NCBI RefSeq assembly: GCF_028641065.1
Contig: NC_073407.1
Coordinates: forward strand, 18,476,001-18,540,000
Direction of reading: 5' to 3'
DNA: 64,000 nt
Origin: Leucoraja erinacea
Lineage: Eukaryota
Position numbers and translations under genes: made by a program. A model generated the notes under the pieces. That model worked only from the letters and a program-made list of their open reading frames with translations. It was not told the origin of the DNA and did no database searches. Below, piece by piece: positions 858-50,334 of the stretch (its first letter is position 1; every line of letters starts with the position of its first letter).

Positions 858-1505
858 CCACAAGAAGATAGTCAAGAGTGTTCAATTATCATATGTACTG
901 ACAACGAAACAATGAAATTCTTATTTGCCACAGTAGCTTGCCACTGAGTGCAATAGCATATAGATAAATATATTATAATCAATAATATCTTAATAAATTA
1001 ATAACTGTTATACTAGATAACCATATCATGCAAAACTGAAGTCCGGAATGCAACGAAAGAGTCCATGGAAGATCATAGGTAGACACAAAATGCTGGAGTA
1101 ACTCAGCAGATGAGGCAGCATCTATGGAGAGAAGGAATTGGCGATGTTTTGTGCACTACAGACATGGAAGATCATCATTGCTGGGGTTGATGTTGTAGAG
1201 TTTTCAGGAGCCGGATGATTGCTGTGAATAGACTGCCATTGAACCTGGTGGTCCTAGTTTTCAACCTCTTGTACTTTCTCCCCGATGGTGGTAGTGGAAT
1301 GAAAATGTGGTCAGGGTGATGTGTAGCTTTGATGATATTGGCTTCCTATTAGAAGCAGCGCCTCCTATAGATCCCTTCGATTGTGGGGAGGTCAGTAGTT
1401 GTGACTGATCGAGTAGTGTCTCTGTAGTCTCATTCATTTCTGGGCATTAGTTGAATCTAGCAGTGATATAACCAATCAGTCTGCTCGCTACCATATACCT
1501 AGATG
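858..1505 (-). mobile_element. Old Rex1/Babar-like LINE 3' fragment, interrupted by a mini-PLE insertion
   Basis: Reverse complement resembles the RT C-terminus and 3' UTR of the Rex1 copies at 28035 and 61682; heavily diverged. Confidence 0.55.
1077..1162 (-). mobile_element. Mini Penelope-like (PLE) terminal-repeat insertion
   Basis: gacacaaaatgctggagtaactcagc...ggcgatgtttt matches the PLE terminus; 13-bp TSD catggaagatcat at 1064-1076 and 1163-1175. Confidence 0.8.
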
Positions 1506-1654
1506 AGATGAACAGCATAATATTTTTATGAGGAATACAGATGAATGCCTTAAGGAGAAATGGTTAGCAAATGATGGCAAAGTAGAAAATGATGGCAAAC
1601 ACTGCCAAGGACTAAATATAATAAAAAGGGGACTGCAGTTGTTTGTTTATAGCA

Positions 1655-2218
1655 AAGATAGATCCAAAGTGCTGGAGTAACTCAGTGGGTCAGGCAGCAT
1701 CTCTGAAGAAAATGCAGTTTGATGTTTCAGGTTGAGACCCTTCTTCTGATCGATTGTAGGGGAGGGGGACTGGAAACAATAAAAGGCCAGGACAAATCAG
1801 GGCCAGCAACAAATGACCTCAGGCAGGGTGCTTCCCTAATAGGTCAATTATTCACTAAGGACAGTGTGATCCCAAGAAAGAGACATCATTACAAAGAGAG
1901 GGGAGTGTCTGTATAATTGACCTGAAATCGGAGAATTCAACATTCACACCTGGGCTGTAAGCCAATTTGCATGTGGCCTTCCTCTGTGTAAAGGAGGAAT
2001 CCCTGGACAGAAAGGACAGTATATGAATAGGAAGGGGAGTTAAAATGGTTAGCAACCGGGAGATCCAGTAGGCCTTGGCGGACTTAGCGTAGGTGTTCAG
2101 CGAAATGGTTGCCCAGTTTATGCTTGGTCTCACTGAGGTAAAGGAGCCCTCATTGGGAACACTGGATACAGTAGATGAGATGAGAGGACGTGCATGTGAA
2201 CCTCTGTCTCACCTGGAA
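1655..2218 (-). mobile_element. Penelope-like element 3' part: decayed GIY-YIG endonuclease plus terminal repeat
   Basis: Reverse complement reads FQVRQRFTCTSSHLIYCIQCSQ*GLLYLSETKHKLGNHFAEHLR, homologous to ORF 44577-44903; terminal repeat at about 1655-1750. Confidence 0.85.
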
Positions 2219-3335
2219 TACATTTAATACTGCCTGGAAATACATTTAATATAATAGAACTGCCATGGACATAGAGCTATGATTGACTATTTTAACATTG
2301 TCAAAGTAAACTTTAAAGATACTAAAGTAAAATTGTAATAAATCTGAATAAGATTGACACCACTGTCATCATTCTGCTTATTGGCAGGTACCTGTGTGGA
2401 GGCAAGTTTTCATTGTGAAACAACCGGTGGAAATCTCGATAAGCAATTTAATTCCCAAAGCTCTTTGGCCAAAATCCAATTATTCATCTGGCAAAAACTT
2501 AACATAGAATTCATTGGCACCTCAATCATAATCCCATTAAAGATGTGTTTGGAATCTTGAGGCAATTCTTCACATGATGAATTGATTTTTCCTTGCATAT
2601 TTCTGATAAGCCTGTAAAGAAATGTATGATTGTGAAGTGGATTATGACCTAAAGAAATGCAAGGGAAAAAGAAAATGAATGTTAAAATGGGGGGAGTGGG
2701 GGAGAGGGTTAGGAAATGGTGGGAGACTAGCTTTGGTGAGGATGAAACTAACGTTTACCAATAAAAGCACCATCTGTTTACCTTTAACTGGAACCATTGA
2801 CAACACTCGTTTCCTCAAATGCAAGGATAAGAATGGCATTCACCGTGTAAAGCAATTATGCGATGTGATTCCAGTTGAGTGAGTCAGGAAATTAACCCAT
2901 GAGTGTATTTTTGCCATTAATTATCATTGTAATTTTACTTGCCCCCCTCACACATGCACTTCCTGACTCTTTGGCTCCCAGTTTCAGAATGCTTAAATCT
3001 GTTTTTAGATCCCCAATGCTCTCTTTATCCCTATCTATGTTATCCCTTACATATTCCTGATGTCTATGTTCCTTTAATATTGGTATTTTGAGCATCCTTG
3101 ATTTTAATCACATTATTGTGCTTACCATTGCCAAAGCTTTAAGATCTGAAATTCTCTTCCTAAATCACTCCACCCCACCTCTCTTTCTTTCTTTTTTAAG
3201 CCACCACTTAGCATCTGATTCTTTGATCTGGCTTTATTGTCATTTGCAGAGCAATGAGGGCAAATGACAAAAAAGCCAGGCTTGTCCTGGTGTGAAATTT
3301 AGCTGTATAGCGTAGACACAAATTATATAATGTAA

Positions 3336-4845: not shown

Positions 4846-4924
4846 TAGTCGCAAAAAGCTGGAGTAACTCAGGCAGCATCTCTAGAGAAAAGGAATGGGT
4901 GACGTTTCGGGTCGAGACCCTTCT
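4846..4924 (-). mobile_element. Mini-PLE insertion ending inside the hammerhead-like core
   Basis: Reverse complement begins agaagggtctcgacccgaaacgtcaccc; 7-bp TSD gcatgga at 4839-4845 and 4925-4931. Confidence 0.8.
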
Positions 4925-5384: not shown

Positions 5385-6606
5385 TTCATTGTGATCATGG
5401 CTGATCGTCCCCTATCAATAACCCGTGCCTGCCTTTTCCCCATATCCCTTGACTCCACTAGCCCCCAGAGCTCTATCTAACTCTCTCTTAAATCCATCCA
5501 GTGATTTGGCCTCCACTGCCCTCTGTGGCAGGGAATTCCATAAATTCACAACTCTCTGGGTGAAAAAAGTGTTTTCTCACCTCAGTCTTAAATGACCTCC
5601 CCTTTATTCTAAGACTGTGGCCCCTGGTTCTGGACTCGCCCAACATAGGGAACATTTTTCCTGCATCTAGCTTGTCCAGTCCTTTTATAATTTTACATGT
5701 TTTTAAACAATTCCCCCTCATCCTTCTAAACTCCAGTGAATACAAGCCTAGTCTTTTCAATCTTTCCTCATATGAGTCCCGCCATCCCAGGGATCAATCT
5801 CGTGAACCTACGCTGCACTGCCTCAATCACAAGGATGTCCTTCCTCAAATTAGGAGACCAAAACTGTACACAATACTCCAGATGTGGTCTCATCAGAGCC
5901 CTATACAACTGCAGAAGAACCTCTTTACTCCAATACTGAAATCCTCTTGTTATGAAGGCCAATATTCCATTAGCTTTCTTCACTGCCTGCTGTACCTGTA
6001 AGCCAACTTTCAGTGACCGGTGTACAAGGACACCCAGGTCTCGCTGCACCTTCCCCTTACCTAACCTAGCCGCATTGAGATAATAATCTGCCCCCTTGTT
6101 TTTGCCGCCAAAGTGGATAACCTCACATTTATCTATATTATACTGCACCTGCCACGCATCTGCCCACTCACTCAACCTGTCCAGGTCACCCTGCAACCTC
6201 CTAACATCCTCGTCACAGTTCACACTGCCACCCAGCTTTGTGTCATCTGCAAACTTGCTAGTGTTGCTCCTAATTCCCTCTTCCAAATCATTAATATATA
6301 TGGTAAACAGCCTTGCGGCACTCCACTCGCCACTGCCTGCCATTCTGAAAAGGACTCGTTCACTACTCTGCTTCTGGTCTGCCAACCAATTTTCTATCCA
6401 TGTCAACACCCTACCCCCAATATCATGTGCTCTAATTTTAGTCACCATTCTCCTGTGCGGGACCTTATCAAAGGCTTTCTGAAAGTCTAGATACACTACA
6501 TCCACTGGCACCCCTTCATCCATTTTACTTGTCACATCCTCAAAAAATTCCAGAAGATTAGTCAAGCATGATTTCCCTTTCATAAATCCATGTTGACTTG
6601 GACTAG
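5385..6606 (-). mobile_element. CR1-clade LINE, 5'-truncated (RT C-terminal half and 3' end)
   Basis: ORF 5768-6634 has QHGFMKGKSCLTNLLEFF, YLDFQKAFDKVPH, FADD and RPHLEYCVQFWSP; ORF 5488-5760 has TRGHSLRI. Confidence 0.95.
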
Positions 6607-6639
6607 TACAATGTAATCTCATTTTCGCATTCACTTGTT

Positions 6640-6832
6640 ACATGCTAGCGGCTATTTACAGAGGCCAATTCCAACACACGCATGTTTTGGGGATATGAGA
6701 GGAAACTGGTGCCGCTGGAGGAAACCCACACAATCACAAATAGAATGTAAAAACTCCACACAACACTGGAGATCAGGATCAAACCTGGATCTCTGGTGCT
6801 GTGAGGCAGTAGCTCTACAAGCTATGCCACAG
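6640..6832 (-). mobile_element. tRNA-derived HE1/V-SINE-like SINE
   Basis: Reverse complement has a tRNA-like head and the tgtgtggagttt..ttct central domain shared with copies at 12868, 27378 and 31024. Confidence 0.75.
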
Positions 6833-7007
6833 TAGTACTGACTTGTATTATTTATTATTATATATTGATCTGCTGTTTTGCACTGAAGCTAAGCTGAAGC
6901 AAGTAGGAATTTAATTGTTGTCTGGTACAAATGATAATTAAACACTCTTGACTCTCTTGAGGTGAGTTTTTAATTTGGAGGCTGATCGCTACATGCAGCG
7001 GTAATGT

Positions 7008-7455
7008 GCAGGAACGAACTGCAGATGCTGATTTACACCGAAGATAGGCACAGAGTGCTGGAGTAACTCAGCGGGACAGGCAGCATCTCTGAAGAGAAGG
7101 AATTGGTGACATTTCGGGTCGAGACCCTTCAGACCGAGAGTCAGGGGAGATGTAAACTAGAGATATGGAAGAGTGAGGTGTGTGTGTGTGTGAAAAGAAC
7201 AGGTCAAAGCAGACCATGGTCGAGGAAATGTAGAATGGTTCATTGTTAGCTGAGAAGGTGACAACGCGACATACAATCAGTAAAATTAACCAGGACCGTT
7301 AAACGAGTCGGAGAACTAAGGTGGGGGAGGGACGGAGAGAGAGAGAAAGCAAGGGTTACTTGAAGTTAGATAAACCAAATTTAGATAGCTGGTTTGCAAG
7401 AAGATTAAGCGAAATATGAGGCGCTTTTCCACCAATTTGCGTTGCGACTCACACA
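7008..7455 (-). mobile_element. PLE 3' fragment (GIY-YIG C-terminus plus terminal repeat)
   Basis: CESQRKLVEKRLIFRL in ORF 7316-7675; terminus reverse complement ctgaagggtctcgacccgaaatgtc. Confidence 0.85.
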
Positions 7456-7469
7456 GACATTCTGCAGTC

Positions 7470-9483: not shown

Positions 9484-9487
9484 TATA

Positions 9488-10161: not shown

Positions 10162-10395
10162 TATAGTCGACTGAAATCTAGCTATGTTCGATTTAAAATT
10201 AACGATTGATATGTGCCTCATCTGAAAGACTTGACTCTCATTAATCCATGCCTTCAAATTGTAGACTCCTCAAACATGGGACATTGTGCCGCAGTTTCCC
10301 TTATCTGTTTCTTTCAACTGGTTTCCTGATAAGAGAAATACATTCTTTCTATTTATCCCATTAGGATTTTCATCATTTTATAAACTTTGCTTAAA

Positions 10396-10815
10396 NNNNN
10401 NNNNNNNNNNNNNNNNNNNNNNNNNNNNNNNNNNNNNNNNNNNNNNNNNNNNNNNNNNNNNNNNNNNNNNNNNNNNNNNNNNNNNNNNNNNNNNNNNNNN
10501 NNNNNNNNNNNNNNNNNNNNNNNNNNNNNNNNNNNNNNNNNNNNNNNNNNNNNNNNNNNNNNNNNNNNNNNNNNNNNNNNNNNNNNNNNNNNNNNNNNNN
10601 NNNNNNNNNNNNNNNNNNNNNNNNNNNNNNNNNNNNNNNNNNNNNNNNNNNNNNNNNNNNNNNNNNNNNNNNNNNNNNNNNNNNNNNNNNNNNNNNNNNN
10701 NNNNNNNNNNNNNNNNNNNNNNNNNNNNNNNNNNNNNNNNNNNNNNNNNNNNNNNNNNNNNNNNNNNNNNNNNNNNNNNNNNNNNNNNNNNNNNNNNNNN
10801 NNNNNNNNNNNNNNN
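10396..10815. other. Assembly gap (420 N)
   Basis: Run of N. Confidence 1.
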
Positions 10816-11571
10816 CGTTGGGTCCCAGCATCACACAGGAGGGCTGGTCACCAACGCAATATTCCACCTCTCCACCAATTCCAATATTGCTCGGCAGTGG
10901 GGGGGGGGGAGGCTCTCTGTTGCGCTAGTATGGGTGTTGCGGTCCGAAGGTACTGGTTTTGAGGGCCAGGTTAGACATTGTGGGTTGAATGGATTCTTGG
11001 GCTGGCATCCAACTGTTGCAACAATTTTAAAAGTCAAGCGAAAGCAAACAATTGGGCTGCAGCCACCTGACAACCAGAATTCATTTTGTGAACACAAACT
11101 TGTTAAAAAGGCAAGGCAAACAATTGGGCGGCAGCCACTGACAACCAAAATTCATTTTGTGAACACAAACTTGTTAAAAAGGTGAGGCAAACAATTGGGC
11201 TACTGCCACTTTACAGCCGCATCGAGGGGACTCACCGTGGAGTAGACGTGCGTTCAGTGTTATTCGTAGCTCAGAGAGTCGTGACCCTCGCTTCCTGGGT
11301 CTGGCAGAGACTGAGTGAAGCACTACACTTCCGGGTTTTATTGTCCCTACCCCTGCCGCCAGCAGAGAGAATGGGGAATTTAAAAAAAACATTAATATCT
11401 TTCTGATTTTTCATCGACGGGAAAAATCCTCTGGTGCCAGAAGGTGGACGGTGGCTCTGAGTGAGGTGGCCAAAAATGACGGCCGTTGTTGGCGGCGTTT
11501 TCTCGGAAATCGCAGCACAGTGGGCCAAAAGCGGTCAAGATCAGACTTTTAGTGATATATATATATATAGA
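10816..11571 (-). mobile_element. Non-autonomous Helitron, 3' tip hidden in the gap
   Basis: Starts with half-hairpin cgttgggtc as at 3354; 11340-11560 is homologous to 3612-3844; internal ~72-bp tandem repeat at 11040-11205. Confidence 0.8.
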
Positions 11572-14097: not shown

Positions 14098-15522
14098 AAG
14101 GTTTATACCTCACTGTTCCAGCATTTTTTCATCTATTTTCTTTTTCAGTTCACATCTTCTTGAGATAGATCCATTTCATTTAATAAATCTCTAAATTGGC
14201 ATTAGTTTTGTCATTTGGTTTCTCTTTGTCTGCATGCTCCCACAGATATTCCCTTTGTACTCTCCATCCCTCTACTTTAAAAAGTGTTTTGGTTCTACAT
14301 TTTATTTGCTCTGATAAAAGGTCATCAACCTGAAACATTACCTCTGTTACTTTCTGCATGTCAAAGTTTTGTTATCCAATTTCCTGCATCATGTGTTTTG
14401 ATTTCATTTTCCGATTTACTGATTTCAGATTCTAATTCAATGAATTATCAGGCTATAATAACGTAGAAAAGTCAACCCTCTCCAGGTTTAATGTTTTTTT
14501 CAAAGGTTTTATTGTTTACACAGGCTTTACAAAAACAAGAGTTTTTGACCAGATCTTGTGTTAAAGGTTCACTGATTAATTGTACCACATGGACTATTCC
14601 ATCACTTTTGTATGGAGTAATATTATGGTCCTAAAATAATAGGTTTGGAATTCATAGTGGAACTGTTTGTTTGCAAAAATATCAGCAACGTGTGAGGTTT
14701 TTGCGTAATTCTTCTGTGTCACACAGCCACTTTCTGCATTAGCTGAATAAATGGATGGCTTATTTGTCTGCCAGAATGACAAGACTTTGGCAACTATATT
14801 CACAAACCCACAGGAATCAATAGCATGCTGAAGACCAGCAATAGCACTATTTTAAATGAAATTACCTGGTTCAAAGTCTACACTGATTTCTGTAATGTAG
14901 ATTTTGATTTTGAATTGCAGTTCTATAATCCTCTTAAAGCTAGAACTCATCATTACATTTAATGTTGTTTAAGTTTAGAACAAATAATTCCCTTGTCAAA
15001 AATTCAACCATAAAAAAATAAGGAAATGCAGAATAATTAAACACCTACCACAGAAACATCTTCACAGAAAAACATGCAAGAAATCTGATATAAATACCAA
15101 AGAACCAAGGATCTGGGGAAAATAAGGAACTGAAGCAAGTATAAGTTAAAAAATCACTTGGGATGTTGGTGAGATTGAAAATCAATACATTTCAAGGACT
15201 AAAGATCTACACTCAAGAATTTTGATTTAAGATTGAGGAAGCTCAATTTATCACCTTCTAAAATTGTAACGATTTTGGTTGGTTTATGTAGATGAAAGGT
15301 AGCTAATATGACCCCACTTTTAAAGAAAGGAAGGAGTGAAAACTGTCTTGTCTTGTATCCACATTGCTTGTCAGACTTTGTCCCACTTCCACCTCTATTC
15401 TAACATTCTCTTCCCCCCCCCCCGCTCCCCCCACTCAACCACTACAGTCTCAAGAAGGGTCTAACTCAAAATATTTCTCATCCATGTTCTCCAAATATAC
15501 TGCCTGACCTGCTGAGTTATTT

Positions 15523-15648
15523 GTTTAAGAAGGAACTGCAGATGCTGGAAAATCGAAGGTAGACATACTCCATACAAATGCTGGAGAAACTCAGCGGGTG
15601 CAGCAGCATCTATGGAGCAAAGGAAATAGGCAACGTTTTGGTCTGAAA
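15523..15648 (-). mobile_element. Mini-PLE inserted antisense into an older PLE terminal repeat (about 15380-15708)
   Basis: 14-bp TSD ctgctgagttattt at 15509-15522 and 15649-15662. Confidence 0.85.
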
Positions 15649-15719
15649 CTGCTGAGTTATTTCACCAGTTTGTTTTGTAAACTGTCATCTGCAGTTCCTT
15701 GTTGTACATGGAATAGAAT

Positions 15720-16535
15720 GATAGGAATGAACAACCTGCGTGGATTCATGAAAGGAAATCTGTATTTGATTAATTTACTAAAGTTCATTTGAGGATGCGA
15801 GGAGTAGAATAGATAAGGGGGAAACCAATGAGTGTGGTATATCTGCATCTTGAAAAGTCCCACTCAGTTCAAAGCCAATAGTATTTTTGCCTTTGAGTAC
15901 AAGAGCAAAGATGTCTCAATGCAATTATTTAGGACCTTGGCGAGATCACACTTGGAGTGTTGTGTATGAATTTGGTCATCACTACAAAATATATGTACTT
16001 CGAATGATGATTTATGAAATTTGTTCAAGATGTGGGTTTGCTGTATGCACTGTATACTAAAAATACAAATCAAAAAATAAAACTGCAGATGTGAGAAATC
16101 TGAAATAAAAACAAGAAATGAGGCCCCTGCTAAGTATTTCCAGCATTTTCTATTTATTTTATTGTCTAGAATGCAAAAAATGAGAAGAGATTTCATTGGA
16201 ATTTCTACCACTTTTACTGGCCTTACGCAAGGGAGGATGTTTCCATAGCCTTGAATTAGTGGCACAGTTTCAGAATAATGGGGAGGCAATTTAACATTGA
16301 GATGAGGAGAAATATTTTCCTGCAGAGCATGATGAATCTTTGGAATTTGCTATCCTGGAGGGCTGTGGAGGTTCAGTGATTTAGTTAATTCAAAGCAGGT
16401 TGACAGATTTCTGGATATTAAGAAAATCAAGAGATTTGTGAATATTATGGGAAAAAAACATTGAGTGGAATGCCAGCCATGATCTTGAATGGAAGGCTCA
16501 AAGGACTAAATGGCCTCGTATTTCTTACAATCTTA
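15720..16535 (+). mobile_element. Old CR1 fragments
   Basis: ggattcatgaaaggaaatc, cacttggagtgttgtg and a CR1-like 3' end; many internal deletions. Confidence 0.7.
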
Positions 16536-18379: not shown

Positions 18380-18511
18380 GAAATAGGCAACGTTTCGGGC
18401 CGAAACGTTGCCTAATTTCCTTCGCTCCATAGATGCTGCTGCACCCGCTGAGTTTCTCCAGCTTTTTTGTGTAACCTTCGATTCTCCAGCATCTGCAGTT
18501 CCTTCTTAAAC
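18380..18511 (+). mobile_element. Mini-PLE with a fold-back (inverted) 5' end
   Basis: 16-bp TSD cctttgattatcctag at 18364-18379 and 18512-18527; 20-bp-arm palindrome at 18379-18420. Confidence 0.9.
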
Positions 18512-27645: not shown

Positions 27646-28034
27646 CTGGTAACTGTAGGAACTCATATGCTTCTAATGGATGTTTGATGTGCATGAGCTC
27701 ATTTGTATAATCAGTTGTGATGGCTGTCATATTGGGCATGCAATTGTCACTTGCTGCAATTTTGCAGAATGGGCAGTTCTTGATATCATTCCTTGTTCAA
27801 TAATGATTAGGCGGCAACATGTTAAGCATACATAGAGCCTCAAGCATTCGGCAGTAAATAGAACTTTCTCCCATAGATCTTCCTCTAGTAATGTTGTGGT
27901 TAAATTATGGGGAGGGGCAGCCAAAGTTCTGGATTATTTAACCAGACTTGAGTGGGATCAAGTAAATAAATAACTGTGATTTAAAAGCTAGATTCATTCA
28001 TTGTAACCATAAAACTGTTGGATTGTTATAAAAA

Positions 28035-29140
28035 TACAGCTCAGCATTCAACACCATTATACCATCAAAACTGATCACCAAACTCGGTAACCTGGGCATT
28101 GACCCCTCCCTCTGCAACTGGATACTGGACTTTCTAACCAACAGACCCCAGTCTGTGAGGTTAGACAAGCACACCTCTTCAATCCTCACCCTGAACACCG
28201 GCGTTCCACAGGGCTGTGTGCTGAGCCCCCTCCTCTACTCCCTCTTCACCTATGACTGCACACCTGTACATGGTACTAACACCATCATCAAGTATGCAGA
28301 TGATACAACGGTGATTGGCCTCATCAGCAACAACGATGAGCTGGCCTACAGGGAGGAGGTCCAGCACTTAGCAGCATGGTGCGCTGACAACAACCTGGCC
28401 CTTAACTCCAAGAAGACCAAGGAGCTCATTGTAGACTTCAGGAAGTCCAGAGGCGGCACGCACACCCCCATCCACATTAACGGGACGGAGGTGGAACGTG
28501 TTTCTAGCTTCAGGTTCCTGGGAGTCAACATCTCCGATGACCTCTCTTGGACCCACAATACCTCTACTCTGATCAAGAAGGCTCATCAGCGTCTCTTCTT
28601 CCTGAGGAGACTGAAGAAGGTCCATCTGTCTCCTCAGATCCTGGTGAACTTCTACCGCTGCACCATCGAGAGCATCCTTACCAACTGCATCACAGTATGG
28701 TATGGCAACTGCTCTGTCTCTGACCGGAAGGCATTGCAGAGGGTGGTGAAAATTGCCCAACGCATCACCGGTTCCTCGCTCCCCTCCATTGAGTCTGTCC
28801 AAAGCAAGCGCTGTCTGCGGAGGGCGCTCAGCATCGCCAAGGACTGCTCTCACCCCAACCATGGACTGTTTACCCTCCTACCATCCGGGAGGCGCTACAG
28901 GTCTCTCTGTTGCCGAACCAGCAGGTCGAGGAACAGCTTCTTTCCGGCAGCTGTCACTCTACTCAACAACGTACCTCGGTGACTGCCAATCACCACCCCC
29001 GCCCCGGACACTTATTATTATTTATTCAAATCGTTTGCTATGTCGCTCTTCCAGGGAGATGCTAAATGCATTTCATTGTCTCTGTACTGTACACTGACAA
29101 TGACAATTAAAATTGAATCTGAATCTGAATCTGAATCTGA
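28035..29140 (+). mobile_element. Young Rex1/Babar LINE, 5'-truncated, RT C-terminus intact
   Basis: ORF 28155-28982 has [41 protein letters not shown] and [10 protein letters not shown]; (TCTGAA)n tail. Confidence 0.95.
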
Positions 29141-31504: not shown

Positions 31505-31830
31505 GAGTTGTGAAGACAAGATGGAAGATGAGACACTGTGCTTCAAGTTTACGGTTGGTTGGATTGGATTGGTTTTGAAGACCGTAGAGAAATGGGTGAG
31601 AGCGGATTGGAACATTAAAATGACAGACAACTGGGAGCTCAAGATTACTCTTGTAGACTGAATGGAAGTGATCTGCAAAGTGATCGCCCAACCTATATTT
31701 GACTTCTCCAGCGTGGAAGAAACTACATTGTGAGGACTGAATGCTGTACACTAGATTTTAACAAGTGCAAGTGAATCACTCCTTCACCTGGAAGGACTAT
31801 TTAAGACCCTGGATGGTGGGAAAGAACAAC
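31505..31830 (-). mobile_element. Decayed PLE GIY-YIG fragment
   Basis: GEVKYRLGDHFADH...LPVVCHFN...RKLEAQCLIFHL in ORF 31413-31751. Confidence 0.85.
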
Positions 31831-32044
31831 TTAAAAGCGAAAAAGTATTGCATCTGTCACAGTTGCATGGGCTTATACTGTGACAATGATAGTTGTGGGT
31901 GAAGGCAGAAGAACATACTGGCGAGTTGCAAAAGCTAAAGTAAATATGTATTAATCTTCCACTGATTACTTTGCCATTGAGCCATTTAGAATGACATACT
32001 ATATTGCCAATATATATTTAGATGGTCATACTCTGCATTAATTT

Positions 32045-32175
32045 CTGAAGAAATGTCTCGACCCGAAACGTCACCCATTCCTTCTCTCCAGAGATGCTGC
32101 CTGTCCCGCTGAGTTACTCCAGCTTTTTGTGTCTATCATCGGTTTAAACCAGCATCTGCCGTTCCTTCCTACACA
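32045..32175 (+). mobile_element. Mini-PLE starting exactly at the hammerhead-like core
   Basis: ctgaagaaatgtctcgacccgaaacgtcacccattcc...cagcatctgccgttccttcctacac; no TSD seen. Confidence 0.85.
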
Positions 32176-34292: not shown

Positions 34293-35124
34293 ACACCACC
34301 CCCGGCAAAAGAAAGAGATCGAATTTGGTATGAATTAAGCATTAAAGTGACAAACAGTTGGCCACTCACATTCACCCTTGCAGATTGTACTGACTGGTCA
34401 AGGGGGCCACACAATCTGAGTTTTGTCGTATGGTTGTTGAGACAAGTATTTTATTTCAGTCTCTTTCATTGTAACTGAAAACAATGATCTCATGATTGAG
34501 AGCAGCACGTGTGCTGAACAAATTTCTCAGGTTCTACCGTATTGCATTGCTGAGGTCTGGGTAAATTGCCAAATCAGGGCTGTCAAAGTTTCTGTTATAT
34601 GTCTACTTTGCATTTGATACAAGGTGAAGTAATTCACGAAACAACTATCATCAAGGCAGTGTTGTTGCCTTAGGCATTCCAGGTTTTATTTTCATATTAG
34701 CGCATTGCATCTGATTGTCAGTGATAGCTATGTGTTCGACTGCCATTTCAAACTGCTGTCATGGACAAAGCAGAAATCCAGAGGCCAACTGCAGTTCCCA
34801 TTTTGCATATGTTAATTTCTCAATAATATTCAGTTGCAATTTGATTTTTGAGCTTGTGCGTTTGAGAGTTTGAATAGCGGTGGAGCGCCTGTGTATATAT
34901 GATTATTTTAATGGTTTATTTAAAGTGCTGTTTCATTTATGGACCATTAACAGCAGCTCTTGCAGGGAAGTGTTTATTTAACACACAAATTACATAACTG
35001 AAACCGTGGAACAGACTAAGCAAAGTGGGCTTTGGAAAAAAGCATTAAGATTGGTTGGCCTGTAGGATAGGTTTGTGCATTGGAAAGGGGCAAGGCACAG
35101 AGGAGTTTGCATCAAGTAGCCAGT

Positions 35125-36133
35125 ACTCTCCCACCTCGACAACAGAGACACTTACGTAAGAATACTGTTCATCGATTACAGCTCAGCATTCAACACCATT
35201 ATACCCTCTAAACTGATCACCAAACTCGGTAACTTGGGCATCGACCCCTCCCTCTGCAACTGGATACTGGACTTTCTAACCAACAGACCCCAGTCTGTTA
35301 GGTTAGACAAGCACACCTCTTCAACCCTCACCCAGAACACTGGCGTTCCACAGGGCTGTGTGCTGAGCCCCCTCCTCTACTCCCTCTTCACCTACGACTG
35401 CACACCTGTACATGGTACTAACACCATCATCAAGTATGCAGATGATACAACGGTGATTGGCCTCATCAGCAACAATGATGAGTCGGCCTATAGGGAGGAG
35501 GTCCAGCTCCTAGCAGCATGGTGCGCTGACAACAACCTGGCCCTTAACTCCAAGAAGACCAAGGAACTCATTGTAGACTTCAGGAAGTCTAGGGGCAGCA
35601 CGCAGACCCCCATCCACATCAACGGGACGGAGGTGGAATGTGTTTCCAGTTTCAGGTTCCTGGGGGTCAATATCTCCGATGACCTCTCTTGGACCCACAA
35701 TACCTCAACTCTGGTCAAGAAGGCTCACCAGCGTCTCTTCTTCCTGAGGAGACTGAAGAAGGTCCACCTGTCTCCTCAGATTCTGGTGAACTTCTACCGC
35801 TGCGCCATCGAGAGCATCCTTACCAACTGTATCACAGTATGGTATGGCAACTGCTCTGTCTCCAACCGGAAAGCACTGCAGAGGGTGGTGAAAATTGCCC
35901 AATGCATCACCGGTTCCTCGCTCCCCTCCATTGAGTCTGTCCAAAGCAAGCGTTGTCTGTGAAGGGCGCTCAGCATCACCAAGGACTGCTTTCACCCCAA
36001 CCATGGACTGTTTACCCTCCTACCATCCGGGAGGCGCTACAGGTTTCTCCGTTGCCGGGCCAGCAGGTCCAGGAACAGCTTCTTCTCTGCGGCTGTCACA
36101 CTACCCAACACTGTACCTCGGTGACTGCCAATC

Positions 36134-36217
<84 letters not shown>

Positions 36218-40384: not shown

Positions 40385-41130
40385 AATTTCAAGCACAGGG
40401 CAGGCTAAACAACTAATTCCATTTCATTAAGGGCTAACAAATCATTTACTGCAAGCATATTAAGGGTTAACACATCATCATTCATTGCAAGCACATTGAT
40501 GGCTAACAAATCATTTATTGCAAGCACATTAAGGGTTAACAAATCATCATTCATTGCAAGCACATTGCTGGCTAACAAATAATTTATTGCAAGCACATTA
40601 AGGGTTAACAAATTATTCATTGCAAGCACATTGCTGGCTAACAAATCATTTATTGCAAGCACATTAAGGGTTAACAAATCATCATTCATTGAAAGCACAT
40701 TGGTGGCAAACAAATCGTTTATTGCAAGCACATAAAAGGTTAACCACATAAAGCACATAACCACATCATGCACATAACCACATAAACCACATAAAGGGTA
40801 GACTCACAGTTCAGTAGACGCACAGTTCAGTAGACTCACAGTTCAGTAGACTCACAGTTCAGTAGACTCACAGTTCAGTAGACACAGTTCAGTAGACACA
40901 GTTCAGGCGACTCACAGTTCAGAAGACTCACAGCAGAATCAGAGTTGTGGCCTCTCCCTTGCAATCTTTCAGAGTGACTGACTCATGTCCAGGCATCCGG
41001 GGTTTTATAGTCCTGCCCTCCCCCCGGAAGGGGCATTCCTTCATCATGGTGATTGACAGGCGAGAGGACCAATCAGCTGAATTCTAGATTTTTTAAACAC
41101 TCATAACTTTTTTATTTTTCATCGATAGGA
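40385..41130 (-). mobile_element. Helitron-family internal fragment with minisatellites
   Basis: 40940-41128 is homologous to 25380-25560; 30-33 bp array attgcaagcacatt(aa/gct)gg(g/c)taacaaatc at 40420-40745; 14-16 bp array agactcacagttcagt at 40800-40932. Confidence 0.7.
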
Positions 41131-42800: not shown

Positions 42801-44459
42801 ATTGTTGAGCTGCAAGGGATTGCACAACTGTTCCATGACTTCAGTGAGTCGCTCTTTGCCACCATCTCACGCAGTGGCACCCTGCCTTTAGTGGAAGGTT
42901 GATGATTTGATGATAGCAAGATTTGTACTATGTATTGTCATTGGGTCAAAGTACCTTACACAAGGGCAGGGACAAGGGCTACACAGAAGTTAGCTCCTGA
43001 GTTGTAAATTGCATACATAGTCCAGAGGGCGCAAGTGATCTCATTGTTGGGACAGCAGACAGAAGATGCAAGGAGCGTCTGATCTGCATGAAGGTCTATG
43101 TAGAAAATCAAGGCACATGGAGCGTTCAGACTCCAATTTGCACTCGGTTTTGAAGAGAGTTTGGAGCCCACCCTTTCCCAAGTGGCTAGCTTCCCTATCT
43201 TCAGTTAATCTACAGACCTACTGTAACATTTTGGATTTAAAGGTTGAACTCTCAGCTTCCATTACAGCACTAACAAATGCCACCCATTATATTTTTTTGT
43301 AGAACTCCTGGCATCTGCTAAGCAAGCTCAGATGATAGTCACAGTTTGGAGGAAAATTAAACTTTTAGGTTAAAGGTTTCAGGACTCATTGTTCAAGAAT
43401 ACTGAACCTGTAAGGTTTAGCTGAAGGCTAAACTATTGGATAAGAATTTTTCTTCACTGCATGAAGTGAAACCAATCTGTGTGTACTTTGATCGTTATAT
43501 CGGTGTCATGTGGACAATAAGAGAAAATTATGAAAATTTGTCCAAAAAAGGATAGTGTAGACTTTAGGTCCTTCCCAAATCACGATTAGTGAAAGGCTGT
43601 TAAAGGAAGCCAAACTAGTTAAACCGAGAAGAAGTGGGATTATGTATGGCTGATTATTAAGAGATGCTTGATTTGCCTATGATGTTTGCATGTTGCATGG
43701 TTATAAGGTTCTCTTATAACCTCTTCATAAATTATCCTGTTAGATTAACCTCTTCATAAACCCATATTCTTTTCTCATGCCATCCATGATGTTTTAATCA
43801 GGAATTTAAATCAAATTATTTGATGAAAGCAAGATTAGGTGGAAACAAATATCCTTTTGCAAAATGTCAAGGGCAATTACAGCCTGGTGCAACAACCGTG
43901 TCCTCTGCTGATACCAACAGAAAAACATATTTTCAATGCAGCTGCTAGCGCTATAACATCTTTGGTGCAGCTGTGACAGCAGAAATGTTCTACATTGATG
44001 CCGGTAATGGTAAATATATTTCTTTATGCATTTGCCAATGACATAAATATCCTATTAAGCAATGCCAATAGTAGAATTCTAATTCTGTGTTCTTGAAGAA
44101 AAAAGTGGCACCAAAGTGACATTTTTCATCTGTATCTCCAGAACAATATGGTTGCCAAAAATAGAAACATCTTTCAGCTGTTTCTAGAAGAATGTGCCTG
44201 CCAGAAACCGAGATGGTTTTCATCTATATTTCCATATAAATATAGCTGCCAACAGTTGAAGCATCCTTCAGTGTTTTCATTCTGAAGGTTGCCGAATGCA
44301 GAGATGCCCTTTAGTATTGTTTTTAGAAGACTTAATAATACTGGCTCTATGCATCCTGTTTTTTAGCAGATGATATCTTCCAGCATTAGAGATTCTGAAT
44401 ACAATTTCTAGAATATAGCTGCCAACAGAATCTTTTAGTTCTACATCTTTTATTCTTCC

Positions 44460-44903
44460 CTTCCCTCCCGTACCACCCCCTCCCCGGGCACTTTCCGTTG
44501 CAACCGCAAGAACTGCAACACCTGTTCCTTCACCTCCCCCCTCGACTCCATTCAAGGACCCAAGCAGTCGTTCCAGGTGCGACAAAGGTTCACCTGTATC
44601 TCCTCCAACCTCATCTACTGCATCCGCTGCTCTAGATGTCAGTTGATTTACATCGGGGAGACTAAGCGGAGGTTGGGCGATCGTTTCGCCGAACACCTCC
44701 GCTCAGTCCGCAATAACCTACCTGAACTCCCGGTGGCTCAGCACTTCAACTCCCCCTCCCATTCCCAATCCGACCTCTCTGTCCTGGGTCTCCTCCATTG
44801 CCAGAGTGAGCAACACCGGAAATTGGAGGAACAGCACCTCATATTCCGCCTGGGTTGCTTGCGTCCGGATGGCATGAACGTTGAATTCTCCCAGTTTTGC
44901 TAG
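44460..44903 (+). pseudogene. PLE ORF C-terminus: Cys-rich linker plus GIY-YIG endonuclease (open frame, no start codon)
   Basis: GTFRCNRKNCNTC linker; NLIYCIRCSRCQLIYIGET.R.L..RF.EH...AQHF...G.N. Confidence 0.92.
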
Positions 44904-45016
44904 CCCTTGCTGTCTCCTCCCCTTCCTTAACCCTCGAGCTGTCTCCTCCCCTCCCCCCGCCCTCGGGCTCCTCCTCCTCCCTTTTTCCTTCCTTCTCCCC
45001 TCCACCCCCCATCAGT

Positions 45017-45044
45017 CTGAAGAAGGATTTCGGCCCGAAACGTC
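45017..45044 (+). ncRNA. Minimal type-I hammerhead-ribozyme-like motif in the PLE terminal repeat
   Basis: CUGAAGA-A-GGAUUUCGGCCC-GAAA-CG-UC; stem II imperfect in this copy and stem I weak; PLEs are known to carry minimal hammerhead motifs. Confidence 0.6.
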
Positions 45045-45369
45045 GCCTATTTCCTTCGCTCCATAGATGCTGCTGCACCCGCTGAGTTTCTCCAGCATTT
45101 TTGTGTACCTTTGATCTTCCAGCATCTGCAGTTCCTTCTTGAATCTTTTAGTTTGTTTCCTGAAAATTACAATTGTTGACAATTAGTGATTTTTTTTCTT
45201 GAAGAATGATTATGCTTCCAGAAGATGCATATTTCAGTACCTTATCTTCCACTTGAAATGGATGCCATATTTGGTCCTTCCTAACTACTCAAGACAAATC
45301 TTGTGCAAACAACAGAAGAAAGATTATAGCGAGAAACACAAAACTGTAGCTGGTGGAATCAGGAGTGAT

Positions 45370-45800
45370 AAATAAACTGCTGAAAGAACTTAGCAGGCCA
45401 AACAACATATGTGGAGGCAAAGTGATGGTAGACATTCTGGTTGAGACCCTGTATCAGGACGGAGTGTAGAAGGAAGATAGCTGGTATATAGAATTGAGAA
45501 GGAGGGGTGAGACAGGCTGGGAGGTGATGGTGCAAGCAGATTGTGGAGCAGGGTGGAGAATAATGAACAGATGGAGTCAGATTGGTGAGGGGGAGTGTTG
45601 AGTCAGAGGCTGGTAGAATGACAGATGGAAACATAGTAAAAGAGAATTAAGGGAGTTGAAATGACGTACATTGAACATTCCAGTTGCATATCATTTCAAC
45701 TCCGCTTCTCAATCATACACCAACTTGTCTGTCCTTGGCCTTTTTCACAGTCCCACTAGCAAACTGTAGAAACAGTATGTAAGTTTCTGCTTGGGGTATG
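45370..45800. mobile_element. Old PLE fragments (minus-strand terminus and plus-strand GIY-YIG remnant)
   Basis: Reverse complement ctgatacagggtctcaaccagaatgtc; ccagttgcatatcatttcaactcc encodes PVAYHFNS. Confidence 0.65.
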
Positions 45801-46067
45801 TCAAGGTGAGGTGGCCCGCCCATTTTGTGGTCCTTTCCCTCTCCTACCAGTCCACTGAGCGTCTCTCTCCTATATTCCCCCTTTTCACCTCCTTCCTCGT
45901 TATCTGGATTGATCACCCTCTCCCATCTGATTTCATCTGCCCATCACATACTTATATATCTGAGTTTCTTCTCCATTGGTTCTCCTTTCCTATCCTTTTC
46001 CCACCCACCTGATTTCCTCTGCCCATCATCTCACCCTTATCTGGTTTCATGTATCACCCAAGAATGA

Positions 46068-46400
46068 AGGACCTTCCCATCATCGACGGGATATGCAGGA
46101 AGTGTTGCCTCAAGAAGGCAGCTAATATCACTAAAGACCCACACACCCTGCCCACGCTCTCATCTCCCTGCAACCACTAAGAAGAAAGTTCAGGAGGCTG
46201 AGAACCATTATCTCAACATTCAACCATTAGGCTATTGAACCACAATGTACGACCTTAACCATAACTGTACGTCAGTCCCCAACTACTATGGACTTTGTAT
46301 AAGAGTTACACAATGTACTTTGTATAAGAGTTACACAATGTACTTTGGCTTGAAATGTTATTATCTCGTTTCCTAGTATAACAGATAATTTATTGTTTAT
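46068..46400 (+). mobile_element. Old Rex1 3' fragment
   Basis: LPIIDGICRKCCLKKAANITKDPTHPAH reading; 25-bp tandem duplication at about 46292-46345. Confidence 0.7.
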
Positions 46401-47459
46401 TGTATATTCTACTTTCCCTTGCTCCACTCATGCCTAGCTCCATCTGCCATTATTAAAAAAATTATTCTTATGTTTCCACCCGTCACCTACCAGCCTTTAC
46501 CTCACCCTTCCCTCTCACTTCTATATACTGGCTATCTTCCCTTTGCACTCTCAGCACTTATGAAAGGTCTTCACCTGAAACATCGACCATCCCAGTGTCA
46601 CTGCTGTTGCTGCCTGACCCGCTGAGTTCTCCCGGTGGTTTATTTTTTGCTTATAACGACTAACTTGACACTGCTATCTCAGTCTACTATTAGTAATTTG
46701 TAGACACAAGTGGCTACAGATGTTGGAATATTTTGCAAAAAAACTTAGGAAGAAATCAGCAAGTCAGGCAGCTTCTGTAAAGGTAAATGGACAGACTATG
46801 TTTCAGGACCTTTCTCAGACTATAATTTGCACATTAATTAACCATGTCACTACAAGGAGTTAATGTATTTACGAGAACATTTGTGAAACATTCATTATAA
46901 TGAAACTGACCATAACAATTCTTTTAGTTAACTATTTGAATATACTTAATTCTAATGTTGCTGAATATAATTTTTCAGAAGTTAGTTTTGGGACCCCAAT
47001 TCTACTTATTTTCCATCAAAATATATGCAAAAGATGGTGAGAGCATTTGTGTTGTTTTTTCCCCCCCATCTGCACTGAAGTAAAACATTTAATGCAAAAT
47101 TGCATATTATAGTTGTAACTACTCCATTAATAGTTGCCTGCAGTTGGAACATTTTTCCATTTTTTGGCTTGACTGCATATTTTAGGATTATCCTCTATTT
47201 TGGGTGCAAGTTGGGTGAACTTTAAGCTGACTGAAAATTTCTGGTTACTGGCAAATTTTCAATTTAACACACAATGAAAATGTGTTTGAGATTCCCTTCA
47301 AAGGCTGCTCTCTTGTTTATAGGAGAGTAGATAAAAAAGTGCAAAAGAGTAAATGCCAAGGACCAAGGATGGACTCCTACAGTAATACTTCCATATCGGG
47401 CAGATAGACCATGGTACATAAAGGGCCACACACCTATTGTTAAATAAGAAAGAAATCTG

Positions 47460-48730
47460 GATGTCAGCTCTGCATATTAATCTTAAATATTAAAGCCGTA
47501 ATGCCCGACCCCACCAATTTCAAAACCCGCTGTAATTTCATTTCTTGTGCACGTACTGCAATGCCCAAATAGCCCCGTATTACATTATTCACTGCTGGGA
47601 CAGCTAGCAGTGCGCAATTCTGCGGGGTTTCATAATTTTTGACAGTCTCATCCATGGTCAGTTGCTGGAGCTGGTGGGAGAGCAAGTAATTTATTATCAT
47701 TGCTAATTCATCTCCCAATGGTTCCCCTGTTAGTCTGGGAACAGCAAGGTTTTGTGCCAGACCTGGTATTTTAGGCTGTTATTGGGCTCTGGTCTTCATA
47801 TGATTCATCATCTGAATCTTGCTGCCCCATAAAATAGTCCTCCTCATGGTGGGGGCGATCTGGCATCCCTGCTTCAGGTGTTTCTAGCGCTGGCTCTCCC
47901 ATAGGCCCACGCATAGTAAACCCTTTTTCAGGTGCTCCCCGCGTGGGCTCTCCTGTAGGCCCACGCATAGGCAGTCCTCTTTCAGGTGCTGCTGGTGCTG
48001 GCTCTGCTGTAGGCCAACGTCTATACTGTCTTCCTTCAGACATTGCTGGCGCTGGCTCTCCTGTAGGCCAATGCATAAACTGCCCTTGGCCAATTCACTG
48101 CCCTTGTTCAGGCATTGCTGGCGCTGGCTCTCCTGTAGGCCAATGCTGAGCCGGACCTTTCCCAGGCATTCCCTGCACTGGCTCTCCCCTAGGCCAATGC
48201 GGGCTGTACTCTTCCTGGAGTGGGTCCTGATAAATCATTTTCCCCATCAGGAATTCTAGGTTTGCGACTCGAGTAGACATCATGTCTGCCTGAGGCGGGG
48301 TAACCTCCGGGTCTGACTCCTCAGAGTCTACTGGCCGAACAGATTTTTTCTTGGCCTTGCACCCTAAAGGTGTTGCAATGGTACTTTGAGTTATCGCTTC
48401 TGTAGTCGCTGGCTTTGCTGCCACCGACTCCTTAATCGGGCGCCCGCTACTCACAGACCCGTGTTCCTCTCAAATTTTACCTGCGGTACGCCTCCCCTTG
48501 CCTTTACGCACTTTCTCCACTCTTAAACTTGTCTGGCACACAGCACAAGTCTCCCGGCAGAAAGCAACCTGAAAGCGAAAGTGAAATCACTTACCTTCAG
48601 GCTTTTTACACTCACCGCCTGGAGGGGCTCTGCTCCTCTACAACCGGTCGCTGCTCTATGCGTCTGACGATATGACGCGTGTGCGGCTGGAAGGGGTCTT
48701 CTTCACGTAGTCAATCACGTGACTCTGTAA
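47460..48730 (-). mobile_element. DIRS1-like retrotransposon 5' fragment (left terminus plus decayed gag)
   Basis: Reverse complement of 48670-48727 matches the left end of the 55741 element (gagtcacgtga.tgactacgtgaagaag); gag-like ETPQNC.LL.VP.VN..I...L...R..E.KLQ in ORF 47464-47718. Confidence 0.85.
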
Positions 48731-49904
48731 TTTGGGTCAATCTCAAAGGTTTAGAAATCAGAAATACTCTCAACCTTAATTCTACTTATTCTCTCAAGGT
48801 TACAGCAGAAGACTTTGGTAACAAAATCCATGGGCTCTCCTGCATTTGCCTGCTCACCAATACCATCTTCATAACAGCTCAGGATTTAATCTATTTTTTT
48901 ATGACTCCAACACAGCAGCAGGACACAGTTCTATCCTGTGGCTTGTCCCACCAAAACCCAGTGCAGTAGTCAGCATACACATAGTCGGCCTGTTTGTTAA
49001 ACCATTGGATTTTTCCGGTCCAAACACACTCTATCAAAATAATTGGTGACCAAATACAATTGATTTCTTTTGGAGATGATTTATAGAATGAAAGTGGGGC
49101 ACGCATGCTATTTCAGTGCCCTTTAACTGAGGTATTTATTTGGATAATTAAAGGATAGTATAAATTAACCAGCTTTTTATTATCTGCATACTGTGTGCTA
49201 GTAATATTTGAAAATACATTAAGGCAGTCGATAAGGGCCTGTATCTCATGCCCTCACTCGACCTCTCCATTGCTTCTGATTTGCAATGCTGTTTTGACCA
49301 CATCCAACACTCTGCTGCATATTGTCCTATGCAAAATTATCCATCTGATCTTTCAGCCTAATCTCACTCATAGATGCAAAACTTTCAATGTAGGATCCTC
49401 ATACTTTTGTTTAACTCTCCTCAAGGCCTGAGCTATTTCCCATCTCTAATCTCAGATAACAGTCCAAGATCTTTTCAGTGTATTTTTCTAACATTATGCA
49501 TTTCAGTTTCTGTCTGCATTGATAACTGTCATTAGCTGCTTAAATCCACTGCCCTGGAATCACATTTCTACACCTCATTATTTTTAAGATACATCTTAAA
49601 ACCTATTTTTTTGATCAAACTAGATCACATGACTTGAAATCAGATTCCCTCTATTACAGGCATTGTATTGATATTGAGTATCAAACTGAAAAAAATAATC
49701 AGAATCAGACCTGATGCCGAGCCTGTTGGGTAAAAGTTCATTGGAGTGGGTTATGATGCCAACTGAAAATATAATTTTAAAAAGGTGTGAAATGCTAGCA
49801 CTCACATTTTTGTAATCTTGTATTACCTTAGAATCAAGAGATTTTTACTTTGTGTTGGACAAAATACATTTGTGTGTAGTTTTGCCAAGCACACTGAATA
49901 AGCA

Positions 49905-50126
49905 CAAAATGCTGCAGTAAGTCAGCCAGTCAGGCAGCATCTCTGTAGAAAACGAATAGGTGACGTTTTGGGTCGAAACCCTTCTTGATACTGGGTTCCG
50001 AGGAGTTTTGACCCAAAACATCACCTATTGCTTTTCTCGAGAGATGCCGATTGACCCGCTGAGTTACTCTAGTATTTTGTGTCTATCTTAGGTGTAAATC
50101 AGCATCTGCAGTTCCTTCTTAAATAA
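49905..50126. mobile_element. Head-to-head inverted PLE terminal-repeat pair
   Basis: About 75-bp inverted arms meeting at the hammerhead region; 10-bp TSD tgaataagca at 49895-49904 and 50127-50136. Confidence 0.85.
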
Positions 50127-50334
50127 TGAATAAGCATATGGTTTATGGGAGGTGCCATTCCAGCCACATTATTTTGGATGAAAACTTAGACCAATAGGAA
50201 TAAAAGCAACAGCTTTACAGTTAACAACTAGAATAAAGAACGGCCAGGCTTGTTGGAGGAGCAGATAAAAGTTTGCTCAGAGGTCTTAACGAGTCCACAA
50301 GATCTGTAGGCCAGGTAGCCTCTTCCTGGATCTT

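What the first reader, a model, noticed from the sequence alone, without database searches (positions are those of the whole stretch)
1064..50136. Tiny TSD-flanked Penelope-derived insertions whose 5' ends sit in a hammerhead-like core
Seen: short insertions at 1077-1162, 4846-4924, 15523-15648, 18380-18511 and 49905-50126 each have their own 7-16 bp TSD, and 32045-32175 starts exactly at CTGAAGA. All are the same PLE terminal sequence and all begin in, or fold back at, the ~28-nt motif CUGAAGA-A-GGGUC-UC-GACCC-GAAA-CG-UH. Established: Penelope-like elements carry minimal type-I hammerhead motifs in their terminal repeats. Inference: the motif sets the boundary of a non-coding 80-130 nt mobile unit (SINE- or retrozyme-like) moved by a Neptune RT/GIY-YIG. 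The copies keep sequence upstream of the predicted GUH cut site, so they are not simple copies of a self-cleaved 3' product. The structure may act as an RT stop or switch point rather than a cutter.
Basis: partly seen in the sequence, partly recalled or inferred. Interest (0 to 1): 0.75.

Follow-up and report, generated by a model that had tools for sequence, protein, structure and literature searches.

The report
Truncated Penelope ends in skate DNA
These tiny insertions match the last 80-130 bases of a common Penelope-type jumping gene in skate-like DNA and are most likely stunted copies of it, not a separate ribozyme-driven element, although their front ends fall near its hammerhead motif more often than expected, which likely marks where copying stalls or folds back.

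Summary
Partly confirmed, mostly ordinary. Five of the six named inserts have exact 7-16 bp TSDs; 32045 has none. All six begin in or fold back at the motif. The hammerhead is real: it lies 78-140 nt behind the GIY-YIG frame in 26 of 72 distant Penelope loci, and its stem I covaries. The window holds 15 insertions: 8 end in the motif, 6 run on into the element's UTR or ORF (two with their own TSDs), 1 weak one ends downstream. Short and long copies are mixed in a tree, and most short ones lack an intact first catalytic box, so a SINE- or retrozyme-like unit is not supported. Public runs show two sharp 3' ends 29 nt apart (the known PLE tail) and two modest 5' hot spots, at the motif's front edge and at the stem II palindrome (each about 3% of partly laid contigs). 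They show no step in depth and no RNA start at the cut site. Best reading: 5'-truncated or head-to-head Neptune-type PLE insertions with some bias towards the motif. The scan reported this before in at least eight other shark or skate windows.

The parts
1077..1162 (-). short tail-less PLE terminal copy; 5' end at the GAAA box after 14 unrelated bases; TSD 1064-1076/1163-1175 (13 bp)
1624..2247 (-). long 5'-truncated PLE copy (GIY-YIG remnant, UTR, motif, tail); TSD 1615-1623/2248-2256 (9 bp)
4846..4924 (-). short tail-less copy; 5' end inside the CUGAAGA box; TSD 4839-4845/4925-4931 (7 bp)
7005..7462 (-). long copy: ORF end remnant, pyrimidine-rich UTR, motif with 3-nt deletion, tail; no clear TSD
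15449..15706 (+). old PLE terminal copy with its UTR upstream; host of the 15523 insert
15523..15648 (-). short tailed copy; 5' end in stem II; TSD 15509-15522/15649-15662 (14 bp)
16116..16158 (+). weak old fragment (E 0.041) whose 5' end lies downstream of the motif
18380..18511 (+). short tailed copy with an inverted 5' arm centred on the stem II palindrome; TSD 18364-18379/18512-18527 (16 bp)
32044..32175 (+). short tailed copy starting at (T)CTGAAGA; both boxes present, stem II mutated; no exact TSD
44441..45140 (+). long 5'-truncated copy used as reference; TSD 44428-44440/45141-45153 (13 bp)
44439..44903 (+). C-terminal PLE frame: C-x4-C-x2-C linker and GIY-YIG endonuclease (PF01541, E 8.6e-5); best relatives are skate, shark and ray proteins
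45015..45046 (+). minimal type-I hammerhead: 2-bp stem I, CUGAAGA, extra A, 4-bp stem II (one mismatch in this copy), GAAA-C-G-U-C, predicted cut 45044/45045
45111..45140 (+). optional tail of about 29 nt between the two sharp 3' ends (45110/45111 and 45140)
45342..46642 (.). old head-to-head PLE remnant: left arm on - strand (to about 45640), GIY-YIG remnant 45647-45805, right terminal copy 46560-46642; both arms run far past the motif
49905..50126 (.). head-to-head insertion: tail-less left arm on - strand, tailed right arm on + strand, both ending near the motif's front edge; TSD 49895-49904/50127-50136 (10 bp)

Best explanation
The short inserts match the 3' terminal module (pLTR end plus optional tail) of an abundant GIY-YIG Penelope-like retrotransposon and are most likely its shortest 5'-truncated or head-to-head insertion products, with copying predicted to start at two fixed internal sites and to be cut short more often than elsewhere at the hammerhead region. 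Steps: (1) shown - copies end at two fixed 3' points about 95 and 124 nt after CUGA; (2) inferred from the anole Poseidon work - these are the two internal RT start sites, primed from the cut target; (3) shown - TSDs of 7-16 bp flank short and long copies alike; (4) shown in part - 5' ends are enriched, not fixed, in the motif; (5) inferred - the enrichment arises because the motif lies in a hairpin on the RNA and holds the best short palindrome of the whole 700-nt copy, where a second cDNA primed on the other target strand can anneal; (6) inferred - ribozyme cleavage plays no part in setting these ends, and the short copies are dead on arrival.
For: Two sharp 3' ends in DNA contigs and RNA reads: X1 274+426 of 4925 partly laid contigs at 45110/45111; X24 2976 reads at 45140. 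This matches the internal starts and tail in PMC11167929 and the tail and inverted 5' copy in PMC8557442 and PMC3846280. Long copies carry the same end and 13- and 9-bp TSDs. Short and long copies interleave in the tree; 18380 is 107/113 identical to the long 45017 copy and 32045 is 107/120 identical to the long 7005 copy. The stem II palindrome is the longest perfect short-loop hairpin in 44441-45140. The 18380 junction has its loop in cDNA orientation, as annealing of two cDNAs would give. The same fold-back is the top 5' loose end in X1 that is not a subfamily break (148 contigs). De novo insertions of Chlamys PLEs, a clade that mostly lacks hammerheads, have a median length of 128 bp (PMC9977147; PMC8557442). 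Hammerhead mutants do not change cDNA size in vitro (PMC11167929).
Against: Enrichment at the motif is weakly shown. 8 of 15 gives P = 0.002-0.18 under the most favourable constant truncation rate, depending on the detection limit assumed. Edge-corrected RNA depth falls at about the same rate inside the motif (0.8-1.1% per nt) as downstream (0.8-0.9% per nt), though subfamily divergence inflates the downstream figure. The other way round, no window copy ends between 7 and about 90 nt upstream of CUGA, and a hot spot at 45015 with AT-rich flanks (X3, 119 of 4480) is not explained by a palindrome and fits an RNA 5' end better. The 18380 loop orientation rests on one base. No full-length element is in the window.
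Confidence: 0.7

Rival explanations
1. Run-off ('strong-stop') model: the element's RNA begins just before the hammerhead (Inr-like TCAGT at 45012-45016, or an end made at the CAG acceptor behind the pyrimidine tract). RT that starts at the internal sites of this first pLTR copy would run off the RNA's 5' end after 100-130 nt, giving short copies with a fixed start; long copies come from the downstream pLTR.
For: Hot spot at 45015 with AT-rich flanks in X3 (119 contigs). 32045, 46701, 13969 and the left arm of 49905 start within a few nt of CUGA, and no window copy ends 7-90 nt upstream. RT starts 111-172 nt into the ORF behind the hammerhead in PAc. PLE promoters lie in the pLTR (PMC2377424). 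An Inr-like sequence was noted in a rotifer pLTR (PMC3846280).
Against: 4 of the 6 named inserts start 5-20 nt inside the motif. No dominant RNA start in X24 or X22. In D. virilis transcription starts about 120 nt before the intron's end, which abuts the hammerhead. 0 of 27 distant motifs have AG directly upstream. Inverted arms of distant PLEs end from -657 to +25.
Confidence: 0.2
2. One reading: a separate non-coding 80-130 nt SINE- or retrozyme-like unit, bounded by the hammerhead, that is itself transcribed and re-mobilised by the Neptune protein.
For: Many short TSD-flanked copies of similar size; very high abundance (79,605 and 86,343 contigs laid); retrozymes are reported to derive from PLE pLTRs (bioRxiv 10.64898/2026.07.22.740005).
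Against: No short-copy clade; 5' ends differ from copy to copy; of the 6 named inserts only 32045 has an intact CUGANGA box; no tandem array of the module; no tRNA gene found in the window; CpG sites in the core decay as fast as those outside (4-7% against 7.5-8% in X1).
Confidence: 0.05
3. No real bias: ordinary heavy 5' truncation plus selection of the shortest recognisable copies gives the look of clustering.
For: Reader named 6 of 15 insertions; unnamed copies 2 of 9; no step in depth; Chlamys median 128 bp.
Against: Local hot spots at 45015 and 45028, one with a fold-back consensus like the 18380 copy; only one weak window copy ends downstream of the cut site although a constant rate predicts more.
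Confidence: 0.05

Closest known systems
5'-truncated and inverted-pLTR insertions of endonuclease-positive Penelope-like elements (Neptune/Nematis type; PMC8557442, PMC3846280, passages read)
   Same: C-terminal GIY-YIG, CX2-5CxxC linker, heavy 5' truncation, head-to-head inverted copy, optional tail of about 30 nt, short TSDs, palindromes at inverted junctions
   Different: Here many insertions consist of the terminal module alone, and 5' ends show some excess at the hammerhead; I found no paper that reports this excess
PAc (Poseidon of Anolis carolinensis), PMC11167929 (first half of the text read)
   Same: hammerhead followed about 100-150 nt later by two RT start sites that define the tail; both target strands extended; ribozyme not needed for cDNA
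   Different: Poseidon clade; ORF starts in stem II. Where the ORF starts in this family was not established
Minimal hammerheads of metazoan PLEs (Cervera and de la Pena 2014, PMC4209133, first half read)
   Same: CUGANGA, extra base before G10.1-C11.1, no loop 3, palindromic stem III, short stem I; mostly single motifs ascribed to truncated PLEs; opposite-strand pairs 100-700 bp apart
   Different: Stem I here is only 2-3 bp, and no window copy has both intact boxes and an intact stem II
Non-LTR retrozymes (bioRxiv 10.64898/2026.07.22.740005, part 1 and passages read)
   Same: non-coding, type-I hammerhead, PLE-derived
   Different: Retrozymes are tandem arrays with a complete ribozyme in each unit; these copies are dispersed, single or head-to-head, and mostly lack a complete ribozyme

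Membership tests
EN+ Penelope-like element | C-terminal GIY-YIG endonuclease upstream of the terminal module | tested here: met
   PF01541 at 44439-44900; further remnants at 1955-2236, 31518-31817, 45647-45805
EN+ Penelope-like element | Telomerase-like RT in the same ORF | tested here: inconclusive
   No RT part in the window copies; a longer relative carries RVT_1 before the same domain (P0021)
EN+ Penelope-like element | 5' truncation, inverted 5' copy, optional tail, TSD | tested here: met
Neptune/Nematis clades | CX2-5CxxC linker between RT and EN | tested here: met
   C-x4-C-x2-C at residues 21-29 of the 44439 frame, conserved in 12 aligned proteins; feature as given in PMC8557442
Neptune (as against Nematis) | RT phylogeny with reference elements | not tested
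   no named reference sequences at hand
Minimal type-I hammerhead | CUGANGA ... GAAA ... UH core in order | tested here: met
   2 of 15 window motif regions complete; 27 of 72 distant loci against 1 and 0 in controls; core columns invariant in 13 aligned motifs
Minimal type-I hammerhead | Stems I and II kept by compensatory change | tested here: met
   Across 13 motifs stem I, which the search did not require, is 92% paired with 14 two-sided changes, 0 of 500 shuffles; within 15 window copies alone not above shuffles
Minimal type-I hammerhead | Self-cleavage (as a dimer) | not testable with these tools
   predicted stem II probability at most 0.02 in three monomers; no RNA start at the cut site in two RNA runs
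Non-LTR retrozyme | Tandem units, each with a complete hammerhead | tested here: not met
Non-LTR retrozyme | Circular RNA intermediate | not testable with these tools
   poly(A) libraries only; no well-supported back-joint among the 15 of 114 joints shown
SINE | Own lineage with a fixed 5' head (pol III, tRNA-like) | tested here: not met
   no short-copy clade; variable 5' ends; no tRNA gene called

The most novel reading that the evidence does not exclude
The short copies are integrated 'strong-stop' cDNAs: the PLE RNA begins at the hammerhead's front edge, RT starts about 95 or 124 nt inside it on either cut strand, runs off the 5' end, and the products join at the front edge or anneal through the stem II palindrome. 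The hammerhead region would then act as the RNA's 5' leader and as a cDNA joining site, and tens of thousands of skate copies would map the PLE integration mechanism base by base.
Probability: 0.2. Interest if true: 0.55.

Novelty: new member of a known kind. Interest (0 to 1): 0.27.

Why it matters
The objects are known in kind: truncated and inverted Penelope ends with a minimal hammerhead. What is of use is their number and regularity. How PLEs finish integration, and what their hammerhead is for, are open questions (PMC8557442, PMC11167929). A genome-wide histogram of 5' junctions in a skate could tell RNA run-off from stalling and annealing at the motif, with no need for a new class of element.

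Tried and rejected
No whole genome is held for this window, so the decisive genome-wide TSD histogram could not be made; read laying covers only 13 nt upstream of CUGA, so truncation further upstream was not measured genome-wide. Exact-pattern scans for the terminal module found 0 matches in metagenome, viral and prokaryote contigs. Rfam gave no hammerhead match up to E 5. Covariation within the 15 window copies did not beat shuffles; it had to be shown on distant loci. RNAalifold of 8 copies predicts no hammerhead fold, only an 8-bp stem enclosing the tail-less end, without two-sided changes. Folding z-scores of 6 copies were not significant. The AG before the motif is not kept in distant PLEs (0 of 27), so a conserved splice acceptor was dropped as a general explanation. 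A loose-end motif from RNA run X24 was not found in the window, so no spliced first exon was identified. One search was swamped by a tandem repeat and was redone. The look-up of sequencing runs listed no RNA holder on record. The dimer paper PMC5785218 is not held; I saw it only as cited in PMC6765202. A term search of 3 supplement files of PMC11167929 gave nothing; its Fig. S2, and the closed supplements of the bioRxiv preprint, may bear on 5' ends.
Full report
Setting. The window is skate-like elasmobranch DNA. The frame at 44439-44903 holds a GIY-YIG domain, and its best longer relatives are named from Leucoraja, Rhinoraja, Rhincodon and Mobula (63-74% identity). No whole genome is held.

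Observation. Five of five claimed TSDs are exact: 13, 7, 14, 16 and 10 bp. With ends fixed to +-3 nt, 0.3% of 1488 random spans give 7 bp or more and none gives 10 or more; with +-25 nt, 17% of 396 give 7 or more. The 32045 copy starts at (T)CTGAAGA and has no exact TSD. In the coordinates of the long copy at 45017 (C3 = 45017, predicted cut 45044/45045), and read by eye, the named inserts start at 45016-17 (32045), 45021 (4846), 45028 (15523) and about 45036 (1077, after 14 unrelated bases). 18380 inverts at the stem II palindrome, and 49905 is a head-to-head pair whose arms both end near the front edge. All keep sequence upstream of the cut.

The list was selective. A profile built from 8 copies gives 24 hits; the best hit in the reversed-window control has E 0.15; 18 hits have E<=0.05 and merge into 15 insertions. 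I dropped the 6 weaker hits; two of them (14311, 22839) look by eye like copies with UTR upstream. Of the 15, 8 end in the motif (the six named, 13969 and 46701), 1 weak one ends downstream (16116), and 6 run 90-580 nt upstream (1624, 7005, 15449, 44441, 45342, 46560). These six have upstream pyrimidine fractions of 0.72-0.92, where 2.5% of background windows reach 0.7. Two of the six have their own TSDs (13 and 9 bp). 45342 and 46560 may be arms of one insertion, which would make it 8 of 14. Under the constant truncation rate most favourable to chance, 8 of 15 has P = 0.002, 0.007, 0.02, 0.09 or 0.18 for detection limits of +80 to +45. For the 9 unnamed copies alone, 2 of 9 is unremarkable.

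The hammerhead. Rfam does not find it. Among 79 distant PLE loci from metagenomes, 72 had enough DNA behind the GIY-YIG match. 27 of these carry the same minimal motif within 700 nt; 25 lie at 78-140 nt, one at 223 and one at 630 (the summary's '26 of 72' should be read as 25 at 78-140 nt and 27 in all). In the window the distance is 113 nt. Controls gave 1 (opposite strand) and 0 (shuffled). In 13 aligned motifs (12 picked as distinct from the 27, plus the window's) the core is invariant. Stem I, which my search did not require, is 92% paired with 14 two-sided changes (0 of 500 shuffles); stem II was required by the search, so one search is partly circular. This is the min-HHR of PMC4209133 (parts 1-2 of 4 read), which already ascribes single motifs to truncated PLEs. 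In the window itself stem I is 2-3 bp, covariation does not beat shuffles, only 2 of 15 motif regions have both boxes in place and both have a mismatched stem II. Three monomers fold into a different hairpin that buries the core (stem II probability at most 0.02).

Genome-wide view (45004-45183, four public runs). 79,605 and 86,343 contigs lay on the module in two DNA runs. The 3' ends are sharp: 45110/45111 (700 of 4925 partly laid contigs in X1; 626 of 4480 in X3) and 45140 (2976 reads in X24, 1609 in X22). That is the optional PLE tail (PMC8557442 passages; PMC3846280 passages), which PMC11167929 (parts 1-2 of 4 read) ties to two internal RT start sites. The 5' side is diffuse. Apart from a subfamily break at 45051, the best DNA loose ends are 45028 in X1 (148 contigs; the consensus is the reverse complement of the sequence behind the motif, as in the 18380 copy) and 45015 in X3 (119 contigs, AT-rich, low agreement, like flanks). 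Each is about 3% of partly laid contigs. In RNA runs the main upstream loose ends (45010-45012; 851, 1807 and 1500 reads) are pyrimidine-rich and resemble the UTR of the 7005 copy, that is, elements running on. One more, at 45014 in X24 (780 reads), is unexplained. No place has many RNA molecules beginning or ending, so there is no sign of a dominant cleaved 5' end. After a rough correction for edge effects, X24 depth at CUGAAGA is 0.52-0.60 of that at 45084 and falls at the same rate inside and behind the motif. Subfamily divergence confounds this.

Not a separate unit. Short and long copies interleave (4 label changes, shuffled mean 4.3; one strongly supported fork joins the long 45017 copy with the short 15523 and 18380 copies; most forks are weak). 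There is no tandem array of the module and no tRNA gene. CpG sites decay alike in and outside the core. Among 50 distant loci with a relaxed core, 11 have an inverted second copy; their 5' ends lie at -657, -351, -229, -105, -65, -52, -45, -16, -16, +2 and +25. Head-to-head layout is therefore general, and the motif does not fix the end. De novo Chlamys PLE insertions have a median of 128 bp (PMC9977147 passages), in a clade mostly without hammerheads. Retrozymes are defined as tandem units with complete ribozymes (bioRxiv 10.64898/2026.07.22.740005, part 1 of 5 and passages), and that paper notes that most PLE insertions keep a single terminal repeat.

Mechanism. Shown: fixed 3' ends, TSDs, common origin of short and long copies, 5' ends upstream of the cut. 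Inferred: the protein cuts the target, primes cDNA at the two internal sites, often on both strands (shown for PAc in vitro), and stops early. Joins are favoured at the motif because it sits in an RNA hairpin and holds the longest perfect short-loop palindrome of the 700-nt copy. The 18380 loop is in cDNA orientation, which fits annealing of two cDNAs rather than self-priming of one; this rests on a single base. The front-edge hot spot fits an RNA 5' end better, and this is kept as the main rival. In D. virilis the start lies 46 nt before a 75-nt intron whose end abuts the hammerhead (PMC2377424 passages), which argues against a start at the motif by analogy only.

Novelty. Layout, tail, TSDs and minimal hammerhead are all described. 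I found no paper on a 5'-end excess at the hammerhead or on hammerheads in elasmobranch PLEs (searches; most subscription papers are not held). The scan has noted the same thing in at least eight other shark or skate windows; those are unchecked notes, not support. Also read as passages: PMC8969392 and PMC6765202. Verdict: new member of a known kind, interest 0.27.

Noticed in passing
window 45065-45072 and 45121-45128 (and equivalents in other copies): An 8-bp inverted repeat kept in most copies folds into a stem whose loop holds the tail-less 3' end; it recalls the stem-loop in which PAc starts reverse transcription. No two-sided changes.
   Followed up: partly
window 15449-15706: A young short copy (15523-15648) inserted in opposite orientation into an older copy of the same PLE module; 13969 likewise abuts a decayed older PLE end.
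   Followed up: partly
run X22, place 45111: The loose-end consensus behind the tail-less end resembles, from recall, a single-cell library adapter; this could be an antisense RNA start or a strand-invasion artefact.
   Followed up: no
run X24, place 45014: 780 RNA reads share a loose 5' sequence joined just before CUGA, next to a CAG that follows a pyrimidine tract; possibly a host exon spliced into a PLE copy, or one highly expressed locus. Not found in the window.
   Followed up: partly
window 31518-31817 (-): Isolated decayed GIY-YIG remnant 230 nt from the 32045 copy, without its own terminal module nearby.
   Followed up: partly
window 28032-28982 and 35120-36147 (+): Two 94% identical copies of a LINE RT 3' end (RVT_1 plus ALKBH8_N match).
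   Followed up: no
window 5744-6637 (-) and 50661-51512: LINE RT fragments, 77% identical to each other; CR1-like by recall.
   Followed up: no
window 53642-54898 (+) and 56722-58479 (+): An RNase H-bearing non-LTR frame and, further on, RT/RNase H-like frames without a Pfam hit that look DIRS-like by recall.
   Followed up: no
window 40425-40933 and about 10395-10820: A 69/135-nt minisatellite followed by a 16-nt array; a 420-base assembly gap.
   Followed up: no
L021, L068-L071: A distant PLE whose 3' end runs at about +78 into a long 20-nt tandem repeat with a strand switch.
   Followed up: no
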